Part shown: positions 6,743 to 12,872 of the stretch, in pieces
How the letters are laid out: each line of letters begins with the position of its first letter
Numbering within the stretch: the stretch's first letter is position 1
DNA from: Vicingaceae bacterium
GTDB taxonomy: Bacteria > Bacteroidota > Bacteroidia > Flavobacteriales_E > Vicingaceae
DNA: 24,000 bases
Assembly (NCBI GenBank): GCA_040220895.1
Contig: JAVJVY010000009.1
Location: forward strand, 48,362 to 72,361
Reading direction: 5' to 3'
Position numbers and translations under genes: made by a program
Notes under the pieces: generated by a model
What the model saw: the letters and a program-made list of their open reading frames with translations, nothing else
Told to the model about the DNA's origin: nothing
The model's database searches: none

Positions 6743-7573
6743 TTAATCATGTCGTGATATACCGGCAATTGCCTGCTTTAGCAAAGAGGTCAGATCTCCT
6801 TCGGCCTTTGCTGCAATGGCCATGATTTCTTTTATGTTGACAGGGGCAAGTCTGGTTGGATCGCAGTCATCGGTCAGCACCGAAAGTGCACAAACAGGCA
6901 GGCCTAAATAGTTGGCAACGATCACCTCGGGAACCGTTGACATGCCCACAGCGTCAGCACCCATGTTCCGAAGCATGCTGTATTCAGCCCTCGTTTCAAG
7001 ATTTGGACCCTGAACCGCCACATACACTCCTTTGCGCAATGTCAAGTCAATGCCGCTTGCGGCTTGATTGATTGCTGCACGCAGATCCGAATCATACGGT
7101 TCAAACATGTCGGGCCACCGGGGACCTACATCATGGTCATTTTCTCCACGAAGAGGATTTTCGGGAAGTAAATTGATGTGATCTTCAACCATCATGATGT
7201 CTCCTTTATTCCAGGCCGGATTTAAATTTCCTGCAGCATTAGAAACAAAAAGGCGCTTGATCCCTAATTTTTTTAGCACATATAGCGGAAAAGTGATGTC
7301 TTTCATAGAAAAACCTTCGTAGTAATGAAGACGGCCGTCCAGAGCTAATATCGGATGGCTATCAAGATTTCCAAGTACCATTTTTCCCTCGTGACTTACC
7401 ACTGTGGGCATCTTAAATCCAGGAATACTTGAATACTCAACTATCTTTATAATTTCTATTTCCTCAAGTAGTTGGCCCAGCCCGGTACCCAAAATAACCG
7501 CGCTTTTCGCCGAACCCATTCCAGCTCTTGTCAAGGTGCTAAATGCCTGATCAATGGTGTCTTTAAAGGACAC
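6743..7573 (-). CDS. Trimeric PNP/MTAP-family purine nucleoside phosphorylase; last gene of the rSAM operon
   Basis: It aligns by eye along its full length with PunA and human PNP (GTGLG, GRLHYYEG, SNAAGNLNP, GPNLETRAE, GADAVGMSTVPEVIVA). The GTG start at 7573 overlaps the upstream gene by 11 nt. The base-specificity position reads SVLTDDCD (Asp235) rather than the Asn of 6-oxopurine PNPs. Confidence 0.88.
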   Translation of the reverse strand: MSFKDTIDQAFSTLTRAGMGSAKSAVILGTGLGQLLEEIEIIKIVEYSSIPGFKMPTVVSHEGKMVLGNLDSHPILALDGRLHYYEGFSMKDITFPLYVLKKLGIKRLFVSNAAGNLNPAWNKGDIMMVEDHINLLPENPLRGENDHDVGPRWPDMFEPYDSDLRAAINQAASGIDLTLRKGVYVAVQGPNLETRAEYSMLRNMGADAVGMSTVPEVIVANYLGLPVCALSVLTDDCDPTRLAPVNIKEIMAIAAKAEGDLTSLLKQAIAGISRHD

Positions 7574-8186
7574 GACTTTGCTTATTTGACTTATAAACCT
7601 GGTACATCTTTTCGAAATGCCTGAAATCCGTAAGTGTATCTATGTCACGTTTAACCTGAAGCATGTGAACATTCAAGTCCAATTCAACGGCATTTGTCAT
7701 AAGTTCACGGCAGGTGGTTGAAGCACTCCAGGTAATTCCTTTCAGCAGAGAGGGATATTGCTCTTTTTGTCCCAATAGGTAGAATCCGCCATCCGCTGCC
7801 GGGCCCACGACAAGATCACTGCGGTCAAGCGCATTGAAGGCTTCCATAATCAGTTCTCCTGAAATCTCTGGACAATCGCTGCCAATGATCACCACTTTCC
7901 TCGCGCCGTCCATCAGGCAACTTTTAAGTGCATTATTTAATTTATCATCCAATTTTCCTTTGGACTGCTCTTTCACCTTCATTCCTTTTGTCATACTGAA
8001 ACGGTGATCGGGTTCGTCAAAGTAGAGGTGAACTGAAATGGGTAGGTCTGCAATGGCATCCATGGTGTGCTTCACCAACCACTTATATACCGCAAGTGCC
8101 TCTTCGTCTCCAAGGTATTGTGCAAGTCGGGTTTTTACCTTGCCCTGTACCTGACTTCGCATAAAAACTATTAAATGATCACTCAT
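7563..8186 (-). CDS. DUF2064 / TIGR04282-type transferase ('rSAM/selenodomain-associated transferase 1', annotated in databases as an arsenosugar-biosynthesis glycosyltransferase)
   Basis: 207 aa. The N-terminus LIVFMRSQVQGKVKTRLA, the segments VVIIGSDCPE and GPAADGGFYLLG, and a nucleotidyltransferase-like fold pattern are typical of DUF2064. Its context next to an ArsS-type rSAM supports the call. Confidence 0.75.
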   Translation of the reverse strand: MSDHLIVFMRSQVQGKVKTRLAQYLGDEEALAVYKWLVKHTMDAIADLPISVHLYFDEPDHRFSMTKGMKVKEQSKGKLDDKLNNALKSCLMDGARKVVIIGSDCPEISGELIMEAFNALDRSDLVVGPAADGGFYLLGQKEQYPSLLKGITWSASTTCRELMTNAVELDLNVHMLQVKRDIDTLTDFRHFEKMYQVYKSNKQSRVL

Positions 8187-8670
8187 ATGCTTTTTCCCCC
8201 TTGATCAGCCATTTTCCCCATGAATTGCTGTATGGATGTACTTTTTGAGTTTTTACTTCATTGCCATCAACGACGGAGTAACCATTGTTTACCCAATTAA
8301 AGATACCCCCGTATAAGTTTTTTACATTCTTATATCCGGCCTTTTCAATTTGTTCAGCCACTTTCTCACTTCGATATCCCACCGAACAGTATACGACAAT
8401 TTCACTGCCGGGATCCAAACTGAGCTGATTCATGTCAAAATCCTTATATCCAACCCAGAGGGCTCCTTCAAGATGACTTACCTGGTATTCTTCACGTGCT
8501 CTTGCATCAAGGATTACAAGGTTTGAGGAAGTTGTGCGTTCCTTGTCCAGTTCGTTTGGTTGAATCAGCGGAATGCTTTTGTCGATAAGATTGTCGACCA
8601 TTTGATCGAAGCTTTGACCCCTGATACCACAGGCTGCTAATAAAAGAAAGAATAATTGGCTGATTCTCAT
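8179..8670 (-). CDS. Exported single-domain rhodanese (sulfurtransferase-like)
   Basis: The signal or lipoprotein peptide is MRISQLFFLLLAACG. The active-site loop is YCSVGYRS (Cys95), and rhodanese-type flanks are present (LDARAREEYQVSHLEGA, NLYGGIFNW). Confidence 0.85.
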   Translation of the reverse strand: MRISQLFFLLLAACGIRGQSFDQMVDNLIDKSIPLIQPNELDKERTTSSNLVILDARAREEYQVSHLEGALWVGYKDFDMNQLSLDPGSEIVVYCSVGYRSEKVAEQIEKAGYKNVKNLYGGIFNWVNNGYSVVDGNEVKTQKVHPYSNSWGKWLIKGEKAYE

Positions 8671-8673
8671 TTA

Positions 8674-9726
8674 CTATTGACTTACTGTTGAGCCTTGGCA
8701 ACTTGATCCTGCTCCTGCTGTGCATCCATAACAGTGCTGTCCGGTCACAATTGCTCGTTGTTTAAGTGCCTGCAAACTTATGTCAGCTAAATTCATTCCC
8801 GATGAAGTCACAACTCCCAATTGTAGCATCTGATTAAAATCGCAGTCATAAACCTTACCGGTGTAATCAACCGATATGGTATTGCGACACATTAAACCAT
8901 CAACGGCAGCAGGATTAAATGACTCCACTAATTTTTCCATATAATCTTCGTAATTACCGCTAGCAATGAGATAGTCCAAAAAACGATTGATGGGCAGATT
9001 CGTTAGTGCGAATAATTGATTGAATGTTATATCATGGTTATCCTTTAGGACTCTTTTGAAGGTTCGCTCCAATTCCTTTTGATCACCTGGCAAAAATGCT
9101 CCACCCGGATTATAGACCAAGTCGAGTATCAGGTCATCTCCGTAACCAACTTCATTCAACATTCGCAAAGCCTTGATGGATTTATCGAAAACGCCATTGC
9201 CTCGTTGTCGATCAGTCTTTGATGCAGAGAAATATGGAAGCGAACTTACCACGCGTAATCGGTTTTCCCGAAAGAACTCGGGCAAATCCTGGTAAGAAGC
9301 ACTGGCCAGAAAAATGGTCAGATTGGAACGAACGATGATTTCCTTCACTCCCGCTTTTCTGAGTTCCGATATGAAATACCTGAAATTGGGATTCATTTCG
9401 GGAGCTCCGCCGGTAAGATCGACCGTGGGCACACCAAATTCACGAATTTTAGACACACAAAGGTCCATGACCTCGCGCTCCATAATTTCCTTTCTTTCGG
9501 GACCGGCATCCACATGGCAGTGCTTGCATGTTTGGTTACACATGTAGCCCAAATTGATTTGAAATATTTCGAGGTCCGTTGGTTTTAATTGCTGAAATCC
9601 ACTCTTCTTGAGCATTTCTTTGAATCTCGGGAGCTTTCCACCGGTAAAAAGGCCGTTGTTCAGAACATCGTTCTGGTAGGAGGGCGAAGCCAAGGTTGCA
9701 TTTAAATGTTTGAGTGTCTGGGCCAT
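8674..9726 (-). CDS. arsS: ArsS-type radical SAM / Cys-rich domain protein (TIGR04167-like)
   Basis: The CX3CX2C motif CNQTCKHC lies at aa 63-70 (nt 9517-9540). The C-terminal Cys-rich tail HCYGCTAGAGSSCQG (nt 8698-8733) is characteristic of this family. 350 aa. The gene symbol reflects family membership only, not a demonstrated substrate. Confidence 0.82.
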   Translation of the reverse strand: MAQTLKHLNATLASPSYQNDVLNNGLFTGGKLPRFKEMLKKSGFQQLKPTDLEIFQINLGYMCNQTCKHCHVDAGPERKEIMEREVMDLCVSKIREFGVPTVDLTGGAPEMNPNFRYFISELRKAGVKEIIVRSNLTIFLASASYQDLPEFFRENRLRVVSSLPYFSASKTDRQRGNGVFDKSIKALRMLNEVGYGDDLILDLVYNPGGAFLPGDQKELERTFKRVLKDNHDITFNQLFALTNLPINRFLDYLIASGNYEDYMEKLVESFNPAAVDGLMCRNTISVDYTGKVYDCDFNQMLQLGVVTSSGMNLADISLQALKQRAIVTGQHCYGCTAGAGSSCQGSTVSQ

Positions 9727-9727
9727 T

Positions 9728-10063
9728 TCACATGGAAAGTTTCTTGACCTTGTTCATCATTTGCACTCCGTGTACCAAAGAAGCTCCTCCGCGTATTGCA
9801 GCTGCTACGTGAACCGCTTCCATCATTTGGGCTTCATCCAGCCCTTTCTCCAAACAGCCAACGGAATACGCGTCTATGCAGTAAGGGCATTGAATGGTAT
9901 GCGAAACTGCCAGTGCGATCAATGCCTTTTCTCTCGCAGTTAGGGCTCCTTCCTCAAATACACTGTTGTAATATGAGAAGAACTTTTTGGCCAACTCCGG
10001 TTCAAATTCGGCGATGTCACCAAACTTTTTAAGGTCAGCGGGGTCGTAATAGGTGTTTTCCAT
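9728..10063 (-). CDS. AhpD/carboxymuconolactone-decarboxylase-like 'peroxidase-like' protein associated with ArsS-type rSAM clusters (TIGR04169-like)
   Basis: It starts MENTYYDPADLKKFG and has the AhpD-like CxxC motif SHTIQCPYCIDAY (CPYC at nt 9878-9889). The ATG at 10063 is preferred over the track's TTG at 10093. The stop lies 1 nt before the arsS ATG. Confidence 0.8.
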   Translation of the reverse strand: MENTYYDPADLKKFGDIAEFEPELAKKFFSYYNSVFEEGALTAREKALIALAVSHTIQCPYCIDAYSVGCLEKGLDEAQMMEAVHVAAAIRGGASLVHGVQMMNKVKKLSM

Positions 10064-10071
10064 TTTTGAGG

Positions 10072-10800
10072 TTATTTTCCGTTCAAATCCCAATTGTACT
10101 TCAAGAAGTTTAAACTGGCATTTTTAGCTATTTCCAAATGAGGAGTTTGTTTATTGATGTAAACCGGAATCGAAGATTCCTCCTTTAAAAAATCTGATGC
10201 GTACCACTCAAATATTTTTGAAACCTGCAAGTGATTCTTACTCAGTATATTATACCTATCATCGTTGATGAAACCCCTGGCTGCCAAACGGAGTTCAATG
10301 TTGAGATTTTCTGCTGTATAGGCCTTGTTTCTAAGTGGGGGGCACGATTTGGCGGAACAATTTATGGCAAAATGGATACGCGAATCATTGAATTGACCCA
10401 ACAGCATGGTCTTTTCTATGTAATTCAATGTATACAACTTACCGCCGATGTCAATGAAAGGAATATTCCAGGCATCTTTTCCATCTTCCTTTATGTCCAT
10501 GATCGTTTTTAGAGGATAGTATTTTAATATGAGTTTAATAGTGAATGCGTTATATGCATTTATCCAAAAAGCTTCTTGCTGTTCTACTTTCCAATTTGGT
10601 TGGGGCGGGTTCTTTTCTAAAAACTCCAGGTATTGATTTAGTACTTCTTCATCGCTTTTAAAACCTTGGTAATTTACATTGCCATATGGATCAACGTATT
10701 TCTGTAAAAGGTCCGTCCATTGCCCATGAGTGACATTCTGTGACCATAAAAAAGAAGTAAAGGTGAACAGCAGTATAGTTGCAACGATTGATTTTAGCAT
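10072..10800 (-). CDS. Exported DUF547-domain protein; first gene of the rSAM operon
   Basis: It has the DUF547 signatures EAFWINAYNAFTIKLIL and DSRIHFAINCSAKSCPPL. I chose the ATG at 10800, which gives the signal peptide MLKSIVATILLFTFTSFLWSQ. The track ORF extends to 11073, but that extension overlaps the divergent gene and has no signal-peptide logic. Confidence 0.8.
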   Translation of the reverse strand: MLKSIVATILLFTFTSFLWSQNVTHGQWTDLLQKYVDPYGNVNYQGFKSDEEVLNQYLEFLEKNPPQPNWKVEQQEAFWINAYNAFTIKLILKYYPLKTIMDIKEDGKDAWNIPFIDIGGKLYTLNYIEKTMLLGQFNDSRIHFAINCSAKSCPPLRNKAYTAENLNIELRLAARGFINDDRYNILSKNHLQVSKIFEWYASDFLKEESSIPVYINKQTPHLEIAKNASLNFLKYNWDLNGK

Positions 10801-10814
10801 GGGATTCTTTTGAA

Positions 10815-10822
10815 CAAATGTA
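10815..10822 (-). promoter_or_regulatory. Candidate Bacteroidota -7 promoter box (TACATTTG) for the rSAM operon
   Basis: Exact TAnnTTTG match on the minus strand, 15 nt upstream of the DUF547 ATG, within the 106-bp divergent intergenic region. On the plus strand, TATCTTTA (10876-10883, one mismatch) lies upstream of the aminotransferase. Confidence 0.4.
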
Positions 10823-10906
10823 CCAAATAAGGATGTTAGATAATTGTCCGGCTTTTTACAATACTCCAATTGTAATATCTTTACATTTAACGCCGAAACA
10901 ACCACC

Positions 10907-12064
10907 ATGCCACAGTTTTCAGGATCTATTCGCTCTAAACTACCACAAGTAGAAACGAGCATTTTTACCACTATGAGCCACCTGGCCGTCCAGGAACAGG
11001 CCATAAACCTCTCACAAGGATTCCCCGACTTTAGCTGCAGCCCCTCACTGATAGAACTTGTGAATAAATTCATGCAGGCAGGCTATAATCAATACAGCCA
11101 TATGGCCGGTTTTATTGGATTGAGAAAAGTGATCTCTGATAAGGTCGAGAAATTGTACGGCTTGAGGTACAACGCTGAAACTGAAATTACTATTACGGCC
11201 GGGGGCACTCAGGCCATATTTACGGCCATTATTAGTAGCATAAGTGAAGGCGATGAAGTCATCATTTTTACCCCCGCTTACGATTGTTTTGAGCCGGCAA
11301 TTGAATTGAGCGGAGGCAAGCCGATCTTTGTGCAACTGAGCGGCCCGGATTATCATATTGATTGGGAGTTGGTAAAGAAAGTGATCAACCAGAAAACCAA
11401 GATGATCATTATTAATTCGCCGCACAATCCGACTGGAAATGTGCTTACCGAGGAAGATTTTGACCAGTTGGAAAAAATTGTCGGTAATTCAGACATCCTG
11501 GTGCTGAGCGATGAGGTCTATGAGCATATTGTGTTTGATGGCAGGCAGCACCAGAGCATGGCTCGATTTCCGAAATTGGCTGAACGCAGCTTTGTAGTTT
11601 CTTCTTTTGGAAAGACATATCATACCACGGGTTGGAAAGTGGGGTATTGCCTTGCTCCCGAAAACTTGATGAAAGAATTCAGGAAGGCGCATCAATACAT
11701 TGTTTTTGCCGTGAACACCCCAATACAGCATGCCTTGTCAGAATTTCTCTTGTACGAAGATGCCTACAATGGCCTTTCCGCTTTTTACCAAGACAAGCGA
11801 GACCTCTTTTTAAAATTAATAGCGAACAGTCGCTTTAAATTCGAGCCCAGCAAAGGCACCTATTTCCAACTTTTAAGATACGATGGGATCACGGATATGG
11901 GCGACGTAGAGTATGCCATTGAACTGACAAAAAAGAATAAACTGGCCTCCATTCCAGTATCGGTATTCTATCATAAAAAAGTAGACAACAAAGTGCTGCG
12001 GTTTTGCTTTGCCAAAGACGACAGTACGTTGCAGGCCGCGGCAGAAATACTAAACTTTCTATAA
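10907..12064 (+). CDS. ybdL: PLP-dependent methionine/glutamine aminotransferase (YbdL-like, class I)
   Basis: It aligns by eye end to end with E. coli YbdL (SKLPQVETSIFTTMSHLA, AINLSQGFPDF, SDEVYEHIVF, SSFGKTYHTTGWKVGYC with the PLP lysine, LRFCFAK). The ATG at 10907 fits the YbdL N-terminus better than the track start at 10844. Confidence 0.88.
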   Translation: MPQFSGSIRSKLPQVETSIFTTMSHLAVQEQAINLSQGFPDFSCSPSLIELVNKFMQAGYNQYSHMAGFIGLRKVISDKVEKLYGLRYNAETEITITAGGTQAIFTAIISSISEGDEVIIFTPAYDCFEPAIELSGGKPIFVQLSGPDYHIDWELVKKVINQKTKMIIINSPHNPTGNVLTEEDFDQLEKIVGNSDILVLSDEVYEHIVFDGRQHQSMARFPKLAERSFVVSSFGKTYHTTGWKVGYCLAPENLMKEFRKAHQYIVFAVNTPIQHALSEFLLYEDAYNGLSAFYQDKRDLFLKLIANSRFKFEPSKGTYFQLLRYDGITDMGDVEYAIELTKKNKLASIPVSVFYHKKVDNKVLRFCFAKDDSTLQAAAEILNFL

Positions 12065-12065
12065 C

Positions 12066-12872
12066 GTGTCTGACCTTAAGATCTCTTTGATTCAAACGGA
12101 ATTGTTTTGGGAAAACAAGAGGGCAAACTTCGAATTCCTTGCAAGGAAGATCGCTGAATTAAAAGGGAAAACCGACATTGTCCTTTTACCGGAAATGTTC
12201 TCTACCGGTTTTACCATGAACGCTAAAATTCTGGCGGAAAGCATGGATGGAAATACTATCTCTTGGATGCACCAACAAGCAAAAGAATATGGGCTGGTTG
12301 TTGCGGGAAGTTTTATTTGCAATGAGCAGGGCAAGTATTATAACCGCTTTGTATGGATGCCTCCTGATGGAAATCCGATCCATTACGATAAAAAGCACCT
12401 TTTCAGAATGGCAAAGGAAGAGGCGCATTATTCTCCGGGCAACCACCTAAAAACCATTGAGTATAATAATTGGAAAATACGGCCAATGGTATGCTACGAT
12501 CTTAGATTTCCAGTTTGGAGCAGCAATCGTGTAAATCAGACTCAGGGAAGTCTCAACCCAGCATTTGACGTCCTTCTTTACGTAGCCAACTGGCCCAAAG
12601 TTAGAGTTTCGGCCTGGGATATATTGCTAAGGGCCAGAGCAGTTGAAAATCAAGTTTACTGCCTGGGTGTTAACAGGGTTGGTGAAGATGGTAATGGAAA
12701 GGTCTATTCGGGACATTCAGCTGTTATCGAACCCAAGGGCTCTTATTTACTGGAACCCGTGATTGATATTGAGGGGTCTTTCACCGTTGCCCTGAACAAA
12801 TCCTACCTTGAGGACTACCGTAAAAAATTTCCACAAGGACTTGATGCGGATCAGTTTGAGCTAACGAATTAA
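12066..12872 (+). CDS. yafV: Omega-amidase / carbon-nitrogen hydrolase (YafV-like, 2-oxoglutaramate amidase)
   Basis: It aligns by eye with E. coli YafV. The Glu-Lys-Cys triad contexts are LPEMF, YDKKHLF and VCYDLRFPVWS. The GTG start lies 1 nt after the ybdL stop. Confidence 0.87.
   Translation: MSDLKISLIQTELFWENKRANFEFLARKIAELKGKTDIVLLPEMFSTGFTMNAKILAESMDGNTISWMHQQAKEYGLVVAGSFICNEQGKYYNRFVWMPPDGNPIHYDKKHLFRMAKEEAHYSPGNHLKTIEYNNWKIRPMVCYDLRFPVWSSNRVNQTQGSLNPAFDVLLYVANWPKVRVSAWDILLRARAVENQVYCLGVNRVGEDGNGKVYSGHSAVIEPKGSYLLEPVIDIEGSFTVALNKSYLEDYRKKFPQGLDADQFELTN

What the first reader, a model, noticed from the sequence alone, without database searches (positions are those of the whole stretch)
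6743..7573. The operon's PNP carries an adenine-type Asp (and possibly a hydrophobic 5'-pocket residue) instead of the 6-oxopurine Asn/His pair
Seen in the sequence: the protein is PunA/human-PNP-like throughout. The segment I align by eye to human PNP ...SLITN243KV...ANH257EEV reads SVLTD235DCDPTRLAPVNI247KEI (Asp235 codon at 6869-6871).

Established knowledge: Asn243 sets 6-oxopurine specificity in trimeric PNPs. Asn-to-Asp changes shift activity toward adenosine. MTAP has Asp at this position in a TDYDCW context, and His257 contacts the 5'-OH.

Inference: this enzyme may act on adenine nucleosides with a modified or absent 5'-OH. Candidates are 5'-deoxyadenosine (the universal rSAM by-product), MTA, or a 5'-deoxy-5'-substituted adenosine made by the ArsS-type enzyme. 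That would explain why its GTG start is overlapped and coupled to the transferase gene. Phosphorolysis would also give a ribose-1-phosphate derivative that the neighbouring transferase could use.
Basis: partly seen in the sequence, partly recalled or inferred. Interest (0 to 1): 0.62.

Follow-up and report, generated by a model that had tools for sequence, protein, structure and literature searches.

The report
MTAP-like nucleoside phosphorylase in arsenosugar operon
The last gene of this arsenic-sugar operon encodes a purine nucleoside phosphorylase with an adenine-type, 5'-OH-independent active site; this makes it a testable candidate for the unassigned step that removes adenine from the arsenic-adenosine intermediate, but the active-site signature is a trait of its whole bacterial lineage and not an adaptation to the operon.

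Summary
Observation confirmed. Window 6743-7573(-) encodes a PunA-type trimeric PNP. Asp235 (GAT, 6869-6871) lies at the human PNP Asn243 position and Ile247 (6833-6835) at the His257 position. This is the pair that MTAP has (Asp220/Val233).

Interpretation partly supported.
- The signature is not operon-specific. All 120 nearest homologues carry it, as do 19/19 unlinked PunA genes of the same class (11 from ArsS-free genomes) and PDB 4m1e and 4lna.
- The enzyme is not a dedicated paralogue. It is the only NP-I (PF01048) protein in a 99%-complete genome, which has no MtnN, MTAP or DeoD.

The link to the cassette is nevertheless real.
- 13/30 same-class ArsS cassettes carry such a PNP, as do 17/32 well-flanked metagenomic ones.
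- The PNP appears in at least six gene orders, and every linked copy is of the Asp/hydrophobic type.
- In other genomes it usually sits between the TIGR04282 transferase and AsSugarArsM.
- All 149 ArsS-positive genomes of 401 have a PunA-like gene; none of the 25 PunA-less genomes has ArsS.

Best reading (about 0.5): a broad adenine/5'-substituted-nucleoside phosphorylase that also cleaves the ArsS product DDMAA to adenine plus an arsenoribose-1-phosphate.

This genome has no ArsM. No enzyme of this lineage has been assayed. The scan reached the same idea before on at least eight other genomes.

The parts
6743..7573 (-). PunA-type (trimeric NP-I) purine nucleoside phosphorylase, Asp/Ile subtype; last gene of the operon
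   Evidence: NF006054 325 bits, TIGR01697 282.8 bits; TIGR01700 (inosine/guanosine-specific) 290 bits, just under its cut-off of 293.35. AlphaFold pLDDT 93.5. Foldseek TM 0.96 to 4m1e and about 0.91 to human PNP.
6869..6871 (-). Asp235 codon (GAT), at the human PNP Asn243 / MTAP Asp220 position
6860..6874 (-). T234-D235-D236-C237-D238 motif; T, D235 and C237 are invariant in the subfamily alignment A1; resembles MTAP T-D-Y-D-C
6833..6835 (-). Ile247 codon (ATA), at the human PNP His257 / MTAP Val233 position; first residue of the C-terminal helix
7563..7573 (-). 11-nt overlap of the TIGR04282 stop codon with the PNP GTG start (translational coupling)
7563..8186 (-). TIGR04282 (DUF2064, CofC-like) 'arsenosugar biosynthesis glycosyltransferase'; the usual partner of the PNP
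   Evidence: 171.6 bits, cut-off 134. In well-flanked metagenomic cassettes, 15 of the 17 with a PNP also have this transferase, and 15 of the 17 with the transferase also have a PNP.
8179..8670 (-). Rhodanese-domain protein NF045521 (rhoda_near_glyco)
   Evidence: 186.8 bits, cut-off 145
8674..9726 (-). Radical SAM ArsS (TIGR04167), which adenosylates dimethylarsenite to give DDMAA
   Evidence: 424.7 bits, cut-off 300; reaction as described in PMC13598754 and the 2026 bioRxiv preprint on ArsL
9728..10093 (-). AhpD-like TIGR04169 arsenosugar-associated peroxidase-like protein
   Evidence: 191.4 bits, cut-off 120; next to ArsS in 76 of the 80 metagenomic loci and in all 40 genome-derived loci
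10072..11073 (-). DUF547 protein, first gene of the operon
   Evidence: PF04784 92.3 bits; recurs near the cassettes at varying positions

Best explanation
The gene encodes a functional trimeric-type purine nucleoside phosphorylase. It belongs to a wide bacterial lineage that has Asp where 6-oxopurine-specific PNPs have Asn243, and Ile/Leu/Val where they have the 5'-OH-binding His257. MTAP has the same pair.

Shown: the fold, the family, the conserved phosphate- and ribose-site residues, the two substitutions, the fact that it is the only NP-I enzyme in the genome, and the recurrent linkage to ArsS cassettes.

Inferred:
- The enzyme accepts adenine nucleosides. Because Glu193 is kept, it probably accepts 6-oxopurine nucleosides too.
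- It does not depend on a 5'-hydroxyl, so it can take 5'-deoxy and 5'-substituted adenosines.
- It therefore serves general purine, 5'-deoxyadenosine and MTA turnover.
- The sugar phosphate passes to the adjacent CofC-like TIGR04282 protein, probably for nucleotidyl activation. It then passes to the GT2-type TIGR04283 transferase, encoded elsewhere in this genome. An inverting transfer there would give the beta-riboside found in natural arsenosugars.
For: Family, fold and residues.

Sole NP-I enzyme in the genome:
- PF01048 gives one hit in a 99.2%-complete genome.
- The MTAP model hits only this gene, at 94 bits.
- Offline tblastn with PunA, MTAP, two MtnN, DeoD, Udp-like, Amn-like and MqnB-like queries finds only this gene.

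Linkage to the cassette:
- 12 of 29 same-class ArsS loci, plus this window, carry a PNP in the cassette.
- 35 of 80 metagenomic ArsS loci hold one; of the 32 with at least 4.5 kb on both sides, 17 do.
- At least six gene orders keep the PNP with the cassette: ArsS-Rhod-GT-PNP, ArsS-GT-PNP, ArsS-PNP, ArsS-PNP-GT, the divergent order DUF547<PNP<GT|AhpD>ArsS, and PNP-DUF547-AhpD-ArsS-GT.
- Every linked PNP is of the Asp/hydrophobic type.
- In five other loci (four sampled genomes and one metagenomic contig) the PNP is followed directly by NF038099 AsSugarArsM (577 bits). In three of them DUF547 comes next, and in one TIGR04283 follows DUF547.

Phylogenetic profile: all 149 ArsS-positive genomes of 401 have a PunA-like gene, and none of the 25 PunA-less genomes has ArsS. 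Fisher p = 6.6e-6, not corrected for relatedness.

Non-redundancy of the subtype: in four two-copy genomes, one copy is Asp/Leu and the other Asn/His.

Published background:
- Radical-SAM adenosylation by HpnH is followed by adenine removal by the PNP homologue HpnG (PMC13459092).
- The cluster-encoded NucPNP cleaves MTA and adenosine (PMC8694150).
Against: - The Asp/hydrophobic signature is lineage-wide and independent of ArsS, so it is not an adaptation to DDMAA.
- As the only NP-I enzyme, a housekeeping role alone explains its presence.
- About half of same-class cassettes have no linked PNP, and none of 11 sampled cassettes in other classes has one.
- This genome has no ArsM of either type. 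DDMAA could form here only from imported dimethylarsenic.
- B. fragilis PNP (Asp/His) binds Immucillin-H, so Asp does not exclude 6-oxopurines.
- Glu193 is PNP-like, not the Ser of MTAP.
- No member of the Asp/hydrophobic lineage has been assayed; 4m1e and 4lna are structural-genomics entries. I found no paper on their specificity.
Confidence: 0.5

Rival explanations
1. Housekeeping only. The gene is the cell's general purine nucleoside phosphorylase. Its place at the end of the ArsS operon reflects inherited gene order, or convenient co-expression, for example to clear the inhibitory by-product 5'-deoxyadenosine and recycle adenine. It has no step of its own in the arsenic pathway.
For: - It is the only NP-I enzyme in the genome.
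- The same subtype occurs in ArsS-free genomes and next to unrelated housekeeping genes such as YggS, RluD and thiolase.
- About half of the cassettes lack it.
- This genome has no ArsM.
Against: - Linkage survives at least six rearrangements of the cassette, across families whose PNPs are only 43-56% identical to this one. This is hard to explain without selection for proximity.
- In other loci the PNP sits between two pathway genes, TIGR04282 and AsSugarArsM.
- ArsS never occurs without a PunA-like gene in 401 genomes.
- ArsS transfers the adenosyl group, so its main product, not a by-product, is a 5'-substituted adenosine.
Confidence: 0.3
2. Ordinary 6-oxopurine PNP. Despite Asp235 and Ile247, the enzyme prefers inosine and guanosine like other PunA enzymes. 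The substitutions are neutral lineage variation.
For: - It scores 290 bits against the inosine/guanosine-specific model TIGR01700, only 3 bits under the cut-off.
- Glu193 (human Glu201) and all phosphate-site residues are kept.
- The Asp/His-type B. fragilis PNP binds Immucillin-H.
Against: - Asp235 and Cys237 are invariant in the subfamily, and the His257 position is always Ile/Leu/Val. That is constraint, not drift.
- Genomes with two copies keep one Asp/Leu and one Asn/His enzyme.
- From my own knowledge: Asn243Asp in human PNP raises adenosine activity, and His257 mutants lose efficiency with 5'-OH substrates. Structures of the engineered E201Q/N243D (with 2-fluoroadenine) and His257 mutants are listed.
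Confidence: 0.12
3. Arsenate handling by arsenolysis. The PNP uses arsenate in place of phosphate and forms ribose-1-arsenate, which thiols reduce to arsenite, as reported in vitro for mammalian PNP. This would feed the arsenic pathway.
For: PNP-dependent arsenate reduction in vitro is cited in PMC12608789. A rhodanese-domain protein lies in the same operon.
Against: - The in vivo relevance was already doubted for mammals (text quoted).
- It explains neither the Asp/Ile signature nor the tight pairing with TIGR04282.
- ArsS uses dimethylarsenite, not arsenite, and this genome has no ArsM to methylate arsenite.
Confidence: 0.03

Closest known systems
Trimeric purine nucleoside phosphorylase (human/bovine PNP, bacterial PunA; NF006054, TIGR01697)
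   Same: Same family and fold: 42% identity to human PNP, TM about 0.91. The phosphate site is kept (Thr30 for Ser33, His61, Arg81, His83, Ser212), as are Tyr85, Met211 and Glu193.
   Different: Asn243 is Asp235, His257 is Ile247, Phe200 is Leu192, and there is a 3-residue deletion in the Phe159 loop. It falls just under the cut-off of the inosine/guanosine-specific equivalog TIGR01700.
PDB 4m1e (Planctomyces limnophilus) and 4lna (Spirosoma linguale), both deposited as 'PNP I'
   Same: Nearest solved structures (TM 0.96 and 0.93). They have the same subtype: TDLC..P, Leu at the His257 position, and GP(N/Q)LETRAE.
   Different: These are structural-genomics deposits, and I found no published specificity for them. 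Whether either gene lies near an ArsS gene was not examined.
5'-methylthioadenosine phosphorylase (MTAP/MtnP, TIGR01694)
   Same: Same superfamily. It shares the specificity residues Asp220/Asp222/Cys223 and the hydrophobic 5'-pocket Val233/Val236/Leu237, which correspond to D235/D236/C237 and I247/I250/M251.
   Different: Only 28% identity and 94 bits against a cut-off of 274.85, so it is not a family member. It has Glu193 where MTAP has Ser178. No canonical MTAP was found in any of 401 genomes of this phylum.
HpnH/HpnG of hopanoid side-chain synthesis
   Same: Same logic: a radical SAM enzyme adds the 5'-deoxyadenosyl group to its substrate, and a cluster-encoded PNP homologue then removes adenine (PMC13459092).
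   Different: HpnG belongs to a different NP-I subfamily; the NCBIfam scan of this protein lists only PNP and MTAP/MTIP models. Its substrate is a lipid.
Cluster-encoded phosphorylases acting on SAM-derived 5'-substituted adenosines: NucPNP (nucleocidin), FlB (5'-fluoro-5'-deoxyadenosine) and SalT (5'-chloro-5'-deoxyadenosine)
   Same: A biosynthetic cluster supplies its own NP-I phosphorylase to cleave adenine from a 5'-modified adenosine. NucPNP cleaves MTA and adenosine (PMC8694150). FlB and SalT are cited from my own knowledge.
   Different: To my knowledge those enzymes are MTAP-type and are dedicated extra copies. This one is PunA-type and is the only NP-I enzyme in the genome.
Engineered human PNP Asn243Asp and E201Q/N243D
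   Same: The same Asn-to-Asp change. By my own knowledge it shifts activity towards adenine nucleosides. The double mutant in complex with 2-fluoroadenine is PDB 3gb9.
   Different: Here the Asp is natural and invariant in a whole lineage, and it is combined with loss of His257.

Membership tests
Trimeric PNP / PunA (NF006054; TIGR01697 subfamily) | Profile score above the curated cut-off | tested here: met
   NF006054 325.2 bits (cut-off 218); TIGR01697 282.8 bits (cut-off 197.1)
Trimeric PNP / PunA (NF006054; TIGR01697 subfamily) | NP-I alpha/beta fold superposable on solved trimeric PNPs | tested here: met
   AlphaFold pLDDT 93.5; Foldseek TM 0.96 (4m1e), 0.94 (8swt), about 0.91 (human PNP)
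Trimeric PNP / PunA (NF006054; TIGR01697 subfamily) | Phosphate- and ribose-site residues (human Ser33, His64, Arg84, His86, Tyr88, Met219, Ser220) and Glu201 | tested here: met
All these positions are invariant in alignment A1.
Trimeric PNP / PunA (NF006054; TIGR01697 subfamily) | Homotrimeric assembly | not testable with these tools
   Only a monomer was modelled
Inosine/guanosine-specific PNP I (TIGR01700 equivalog) | Score above cut-off, with the Asn243/His257 pair that sets 6-oxopurine and 5'-OH recognition | tested here: not met
   290 bits against a cut-off of 293.35; Asp235 and Ile247 occupy the two positions
MTAP / MtnP (TIGR01694) | Profile score above the curated cut-off | tested here: not met
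   94.4 bits against a cut-off of 274.85
MTAP / MtnP (TIGR01694) | Asp220/Asp222 base contacts and the hydrophobic 5'-alkylthio pocket (Val233, Val236, Leu237) | tested here: met
The Ser178 equivalent is Glu193, which is not MTAP-like.
Arsenosugar biosynthesis gene set (NCBIfam TIGR04167 ArsS, TIGR04169, TIGR04282, NF045521, NF038099, TIGR04283) | Encoded in one operon with ArsS and its signature partners | tested here: met
   Six co-directional genes with gaps of -22, +1, +3, -8 and -11 nt
Arsenosugar biosynthesis gene set (NCBIfam TIGR04167 ArsS, TIGR04169, TIGR04282, NF045521, NF038099, TIGR04283) | Recurrent co-location across lineages | tested here: met
   13/30 same-class cassettes, 17/32 well-flanked metagenomic cassettes, several gene orders. 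Not universal: 0/11 in other classes.
Arsenosugar biosynthesis gene set (NCBIfam TIGR04167 ArsS, TIGR04169, TIGR04282, NF045521, NF038099, TIGR04283) | Catalyses a step of the pathway (phosphorolysis of DDMAA) | not testable with these tools
   Needs an enzyme assay or a knockout; no published assay was found
HpnG-type hopanoid-associated phosphorylase | Profile match to the HpnG family | tested here: not met
   The NCBIfam scan of the protein at E <= 0.001 lists only PNP and MTAP/MTIP models

The most novel reading that the evidence does not exclude
The Asp/hydrophobic PunA lineage may be the long-missing phosphorylase for MTA, 5'-deoxyadenosine and other 5'-substituted adenosines in Bacteroidota and neighbouring phyla. 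No canonical MTAP was found in any of 401 genomes of the phylum, and canonical MtnN in only 21. The lineage may keep the ancestral MTAP-like specificity from which the Asn/His 6-oxopurine PNPs, including the human enzyme, later arose.

In arsenosugar producers the lineage would open a three-enzyme route. The PNP makes alpha-arsenoribose-1-phosphate. TIGR04282 activates it with a nucleotide. The inverting GT2 enzyme TIGR04283 then makes the beta-riboside. That would complete the pathway proposed in 1987.
Probability: 0.3. Interest if true: 0.75.

Novelty: new variant of a known kind. Interest (0 to 1): 0.5.

Why it matters
Arsenosugars are the main organic arsenic species in marine algae and seafood. 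Only the first two enzymes of their synthesis, ArsM and ArsS, are known. The step that removes adenine from DDMAA, and the steps that attach the arsenoribose to glycerol or lipids, are unassigned.

A phosphorylase kept inside the cassette, next to a nucleotidyltransferase-like protein, gives concrete and cheaply testable candidates for those steps.

Separately, an uncharacterised and very widespread PNP subtype carries MTAP-like specificity residues. In many Bacteroidota it is the only NP-I enzyme. This bears on how the phylum disposes of MTA and of the radical-SAM by-product 5'-deoxyadenosine, and on how 6-oxopurine specificity evolved in the PNP family.

Tried and rejected
1. AlphaFold on the single sequence failed (pLDDT 35.8). 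I repeated it with a 71-sequence alignment.
2. A methionine-salvage link to the divergent YbdL-like and YafV-like genes (10844-12872) was rejected. Neither gene is found near any of the 40 genome-derived ArsS loci. Among the 80 PNP loci there are only two weak YbdL-like hits (30% and 21% identity) and no YafV hit. The genome also has no MtnA.
3. Gap-filling by complementarity with MtnN and MTAP is only suggestive. MTAP is missing from all 401 genomes and MtnN is rare. But 22 of the 25 PunA-less genomes also lack both, and two that I checked have only a Udp-like NP-I enzyme. Another route for 5'-deoxyadenosine must therefore exist in the phylum.
4. I looked for a substitute adenine-removing gene (MTAP, MtnN, DeoD, Udp-like, Amn-like, MqnB-like) in cassettes without a PNP. 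None was found, apart from one unrelated MqnB-like gene 2.4 kb away.
5. Linked PNPs do not form their own clade. They cluster with unlinked Bacteroidia sequences.
6. Rooting the family with human MTAP gave an unresolved basal polytomy (outgroup branch length 10). Ancestry of the Asp/hydrophobic state is compatible with the tree but not shown.
7. The promoter and terminator scan gave counts no higher than shuffled sequence.
9. Literature searches found no paper on the specificity of Asp-type trimeric bacterial PNPs or on a DDMAA-cleaving enzyme. The library omits most subscription journals.
Full report
**What is there**

Window 6743-7573 on the minus strand is a 276-codon ORF with a GTG start.
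- It scores 325 bits against NF006054 (purine-nucleoside phosphorylase, cut-off 218) and 282.8 bits against the PunA/XapA subfamily TIGR01697.
- It falls 3 bits short of the inosine/guanosine-specific equivalog TIGR01700.
- It scores 94 bits against MTAP, whose cut-off is 275.

It is the last of six co-directional genes:
- DUF547, 10072-11073
- AhpD-like TIGR04169, 9728-10093
- radical SAM ArsS TIGR04167, 8674-9726
- rhodanese NF045521, 8179-8670
- CofC-like TIGR04282, 7563-8186
- the PNP, 6743-7573

The gaps between them are -22, +1, +3, -8 and -11 nt. The next gene downstream, a T9SS esterase, lies 154 nt away.

**The residues**

Codons were read directly: Asp235 is GAT at 6869-6871 and Ile247 is ATA at 6833-6835.
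- The block GMSTVPEVIVA is identical between human PNP and this protein, and from it to the T-D there is no gap, so D235 corresponds to N243.
- Bacterial Asn/His-type PNPs of the same length place their His exactly at the Ile247 column.
- In the AlphaFold model (pLDDT 93.5, built with a 71-sequence alignment) residue 247 opens the C-terminal helix.
- Against human MTAP: D235=D220, D236=D222, C237=C223, I247=V233, I250=V236, M251=L237.
- Other differences from human PNP are Phe200 to Leu192 and a 3-residue deletion in the Phe159 loop. Glu201 is kept as Glu193, and the phosphate site is intact.

Their numbering agrees with the chain ranges reported by phmmer.

**Is the signature special to the operon? 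No.**
- All 120 nearest homologues in the 5.8-billion-protein collection read T-D-[D/E/N]-C-[D/Y]-P with Ile or Leu at position 247.
- Among 73 PunA genes from named genomes: 29 are Asn/His (28 of them Bacillota or Bacteroidota), 25 are Asp/His (22 of them Chitinophaga), and 16 are Asp/Ile or Asp/Leu. The last group comes from Bacteroidota, Latescibacterota, Thermodesulfobacteriota, Hydrogenedentota and unclassified bins. Only one of the 80 loci has an ArsS gene within 10 kb.
- The neighbours of unlinked Asp/Ile genes are unrelated housekeeping genes.
- I fetched 19 PunA genes of the window's own class that are not linked to ArsS, 11 of them from genomes without any ArsS. All 19 have Thr-Asp and Ile/Leu/Val.
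- The two nearest solved structures, 4m1e (Planctomyces limnophilus, TM 0.96) and 4lna (Spirosoma linguale), are of the same subtype.

**Is there a second housekeeping enzyme? No.**
- PF01048 finds one gene in this 99.2%-complete genome.
- The MTAP model finds only the same gene.
- MtnN is not found.
- Offline tblastn with eight different NP-I representatives finds nothing else.

The enzyme is therefore not a dedicated paralogue. It is the cell's only nucleoside phosphorylase of this superfamily.

**Is the subtype functionally distinct?**
- In four genomes of other classes that have two PunA genes, one copy is Asp/Leu and the other Asn/His.
- In the tree, the His-bearing sequences (Asn/His and Asp/His, with human PNP) form one group with 92-93% SH-aLRT support. 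The Asp/hydrophobic groups lie outside it in an unresolved base next to the MTAP outgroup.
- Coexistence of the two subtypes argues for different roles. An ancestral MTAP-like state is compatible with the tree but not shown.

Asp alone does not mean adenine-only. The Asp/His enzyme of Bacteroides fragilis was crystallised with Immucillin-H (8swt), and Glu193 is retained here. I expect broad base tolerance with little dependence on the 5'-hydroxyl.

**Is the link to ArsS real? Yes.**
- ArsS is common in the phylum, in 149 of 401 sampled genomes.
- I fetched all 29 same-class ArsS loci. Twelve have a PNP in the cassette, which makes 13 of 30 with this window. None of 11 loci from other classes does.
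- In an independent set of 80 metagenomic ArsS loci, 35 contain a PNP. Of the 32 with at least 4.5 kb on both sides, 17 do, and 15 of those also have TIGR04282.
- At least six gene orders keep the PNP with the cassette, and every linked PNP is of the Asp/hydrophobic type.
- In five other loci the PNP is directly followed by NF038099, the arsenosugar-type ArsM (577 bits). DUF547 comes next in three of them, and the GT2-type TIGR04283 follows DUF547 in one. There the PNP sits in the middle of the NCBIfam-defined arsenosugar gene set.
- No alternative adenine-removing gene occupies cassettes that lack a PNP.
- All 149 ArsS-positive genomes have a PunA-like gene, and none of the 25 PunA-less genomes has ArsS. 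Fisher p = 6.6e-6 for the phylum sample and 2.4e-3 within the class. Relatives are not independent, so these values overstate the case.

**Mechanism proposed**

ArsS transfers the 5'-deoxyadenosyl group of SAM to dimethylarsenite and gives DDMAA (PMC13598754). A 2026 preprint says only that the adenine 'can then be removed'. I found no paper that names the enzyme.

The proposed steps are:
1. A phosphorylase with an adenine-compatible Asp and a hydrophobic 5'-pocket cleaves DDMAA to adenine and 5-deoxy-5-dimethylarsinoyl-alpha-D-ribose-1-phosphate.
2. The adjacent CofC-like TIGR04282 protein, which has a sugar-phosphate nucleotidyltransferase-type fold, could activate this sugar phosphate.
3. 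An inverting GT2 enzyme (TIGR04283, present in this genome at contig C16:45144-45809) would then yield a beta-riboside. That is the configuration of natural arsenosugars.

The stereochemical argument rests on established knowledge of PNP products and GT2 enzymes. It is inference, not a result.

There are precedents for the logic:
- HpnH (radical SAM adenosylation) is followed by the PNP homologue HpnG (PMC13459092).
- The cluster-encoded NucPNP cleaves MTA and adenosine (PMC8694150).
- From my own knowledge, FlB and SalT act on 5'-halo-5'-deoxyadenosines.

**Cautions specific to this genome**
- Neither ArsM type is encoded anywhere; the best NF008823 hit is 29 bits and NF038099 gives none. Dimethylarsenic would have to be imported, or the cassette acts on something else here.
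- The gap-filling argument for a general MTA/5'-deoxyadenosine role is weak. No canonical MTAP was found in any of 401 genomes and MtnN is rare. But most PunA-less genomes lack both as well, and two that I checked have only a Udp-like enzyme.

**Verdict**

The active-site signature is a lineage trait and does not explain the operon coupling, and the enzyme is the sole housekeeping NP-I protein. The conserved, rearrangement-proof linkage still makes it the best available candidate for the adenine-removal step.

The scan has reached the same idea before on at least eight other genomes; my counts were made independently of those notes and agree with them. What this window adds:
- it is a case without any ArsM and with the PNP as the only NP-I enzyme;
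- no canonical MTAP was found across the phylum sample;
- Asp/Leu and Asn/His paralogues coexist in the same genome;
- ArsS is found only in genomes that have a PunA-like gene.

No biochemical test exists.

Noticed in passing
whole genome G000 (window = C9:48362-72361): The ArsS cassette is complete, but the genome encodes no arsenite methyltransferase. The best NF008823 hit is 29 bits and NF038099 gives none. In five related loci an AsSugarArsM gene follows the PNP directly. The substrate would have to be imported dimethylarsenic, or something else.
   Followed up: partly
G000 contig C16:45144-46546: A second small locus holds the TIGR04283 'arsenosugar' GT2 glycosyltransferase (224.6 bits), immediately followed by a second DUF547 gene (41% identical to the window's). 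The gene set is thus split over two contigs.
   Followed up: partly
window 10844-12872 (+): A YbdL-like methionine aminotransferase and a YafV-like omega-amidase are transcribed divergently from the operon. Neither is found near any of the 40 genome-derived ArsS loci. The 80 PNP loci give only two weak YbdL-like hits and no YafV hit, so a methionine-salvage link is unlikely.
   Followed up: yes
phylum sample of 401 genomes: No canonical MTAP (TIGR01694) was found in any of the 401 genomes, and canonical MtnN (TIGR01704) in only 21. How most of this phylum disposes of MTA and 5'-deoxyadenosine is not obvious. Some genomes (G022, G047) have only a Udp-like NP-I enzyme.
   Followed up: partly
G111:C11:532435-534016 and G359:C1:654561-656158 (L231, L233): Tandem PunA duplicates. 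One copy is the usual T-D-D-C-[D/E]-P type with Leu. The other is an unusual T-N-D-C-D-P type with Leu at the His257 position, i.e. Asn combined with a hydrophobic residue.
   Followed up: no
ArsS genes of G291, G306, G334, G046, G146, G262, G341: Each has a single in-frame TGA, and in six of the seven the match then runs on to residue 349-350 of the query. This fits the selenocysteine-containing forms implied by the family name 'radical SAM (seleno)protein ArsS'. The window's copy has none.
   Followed up: no
L108 (G375:C3:1-336): The PNP directly downstream of ArsS has an in-frame stop (..NFKK*DLV..) and may be a pseudogene. That genome has three PunA-like matches.
   Followed up: no
Lewinellaceae loci L032, L037, L078: A further PunA variant combines Asn at the 243 position with Val or Ile at the 257 position and forms its own long-branched group.
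   Followed up: no
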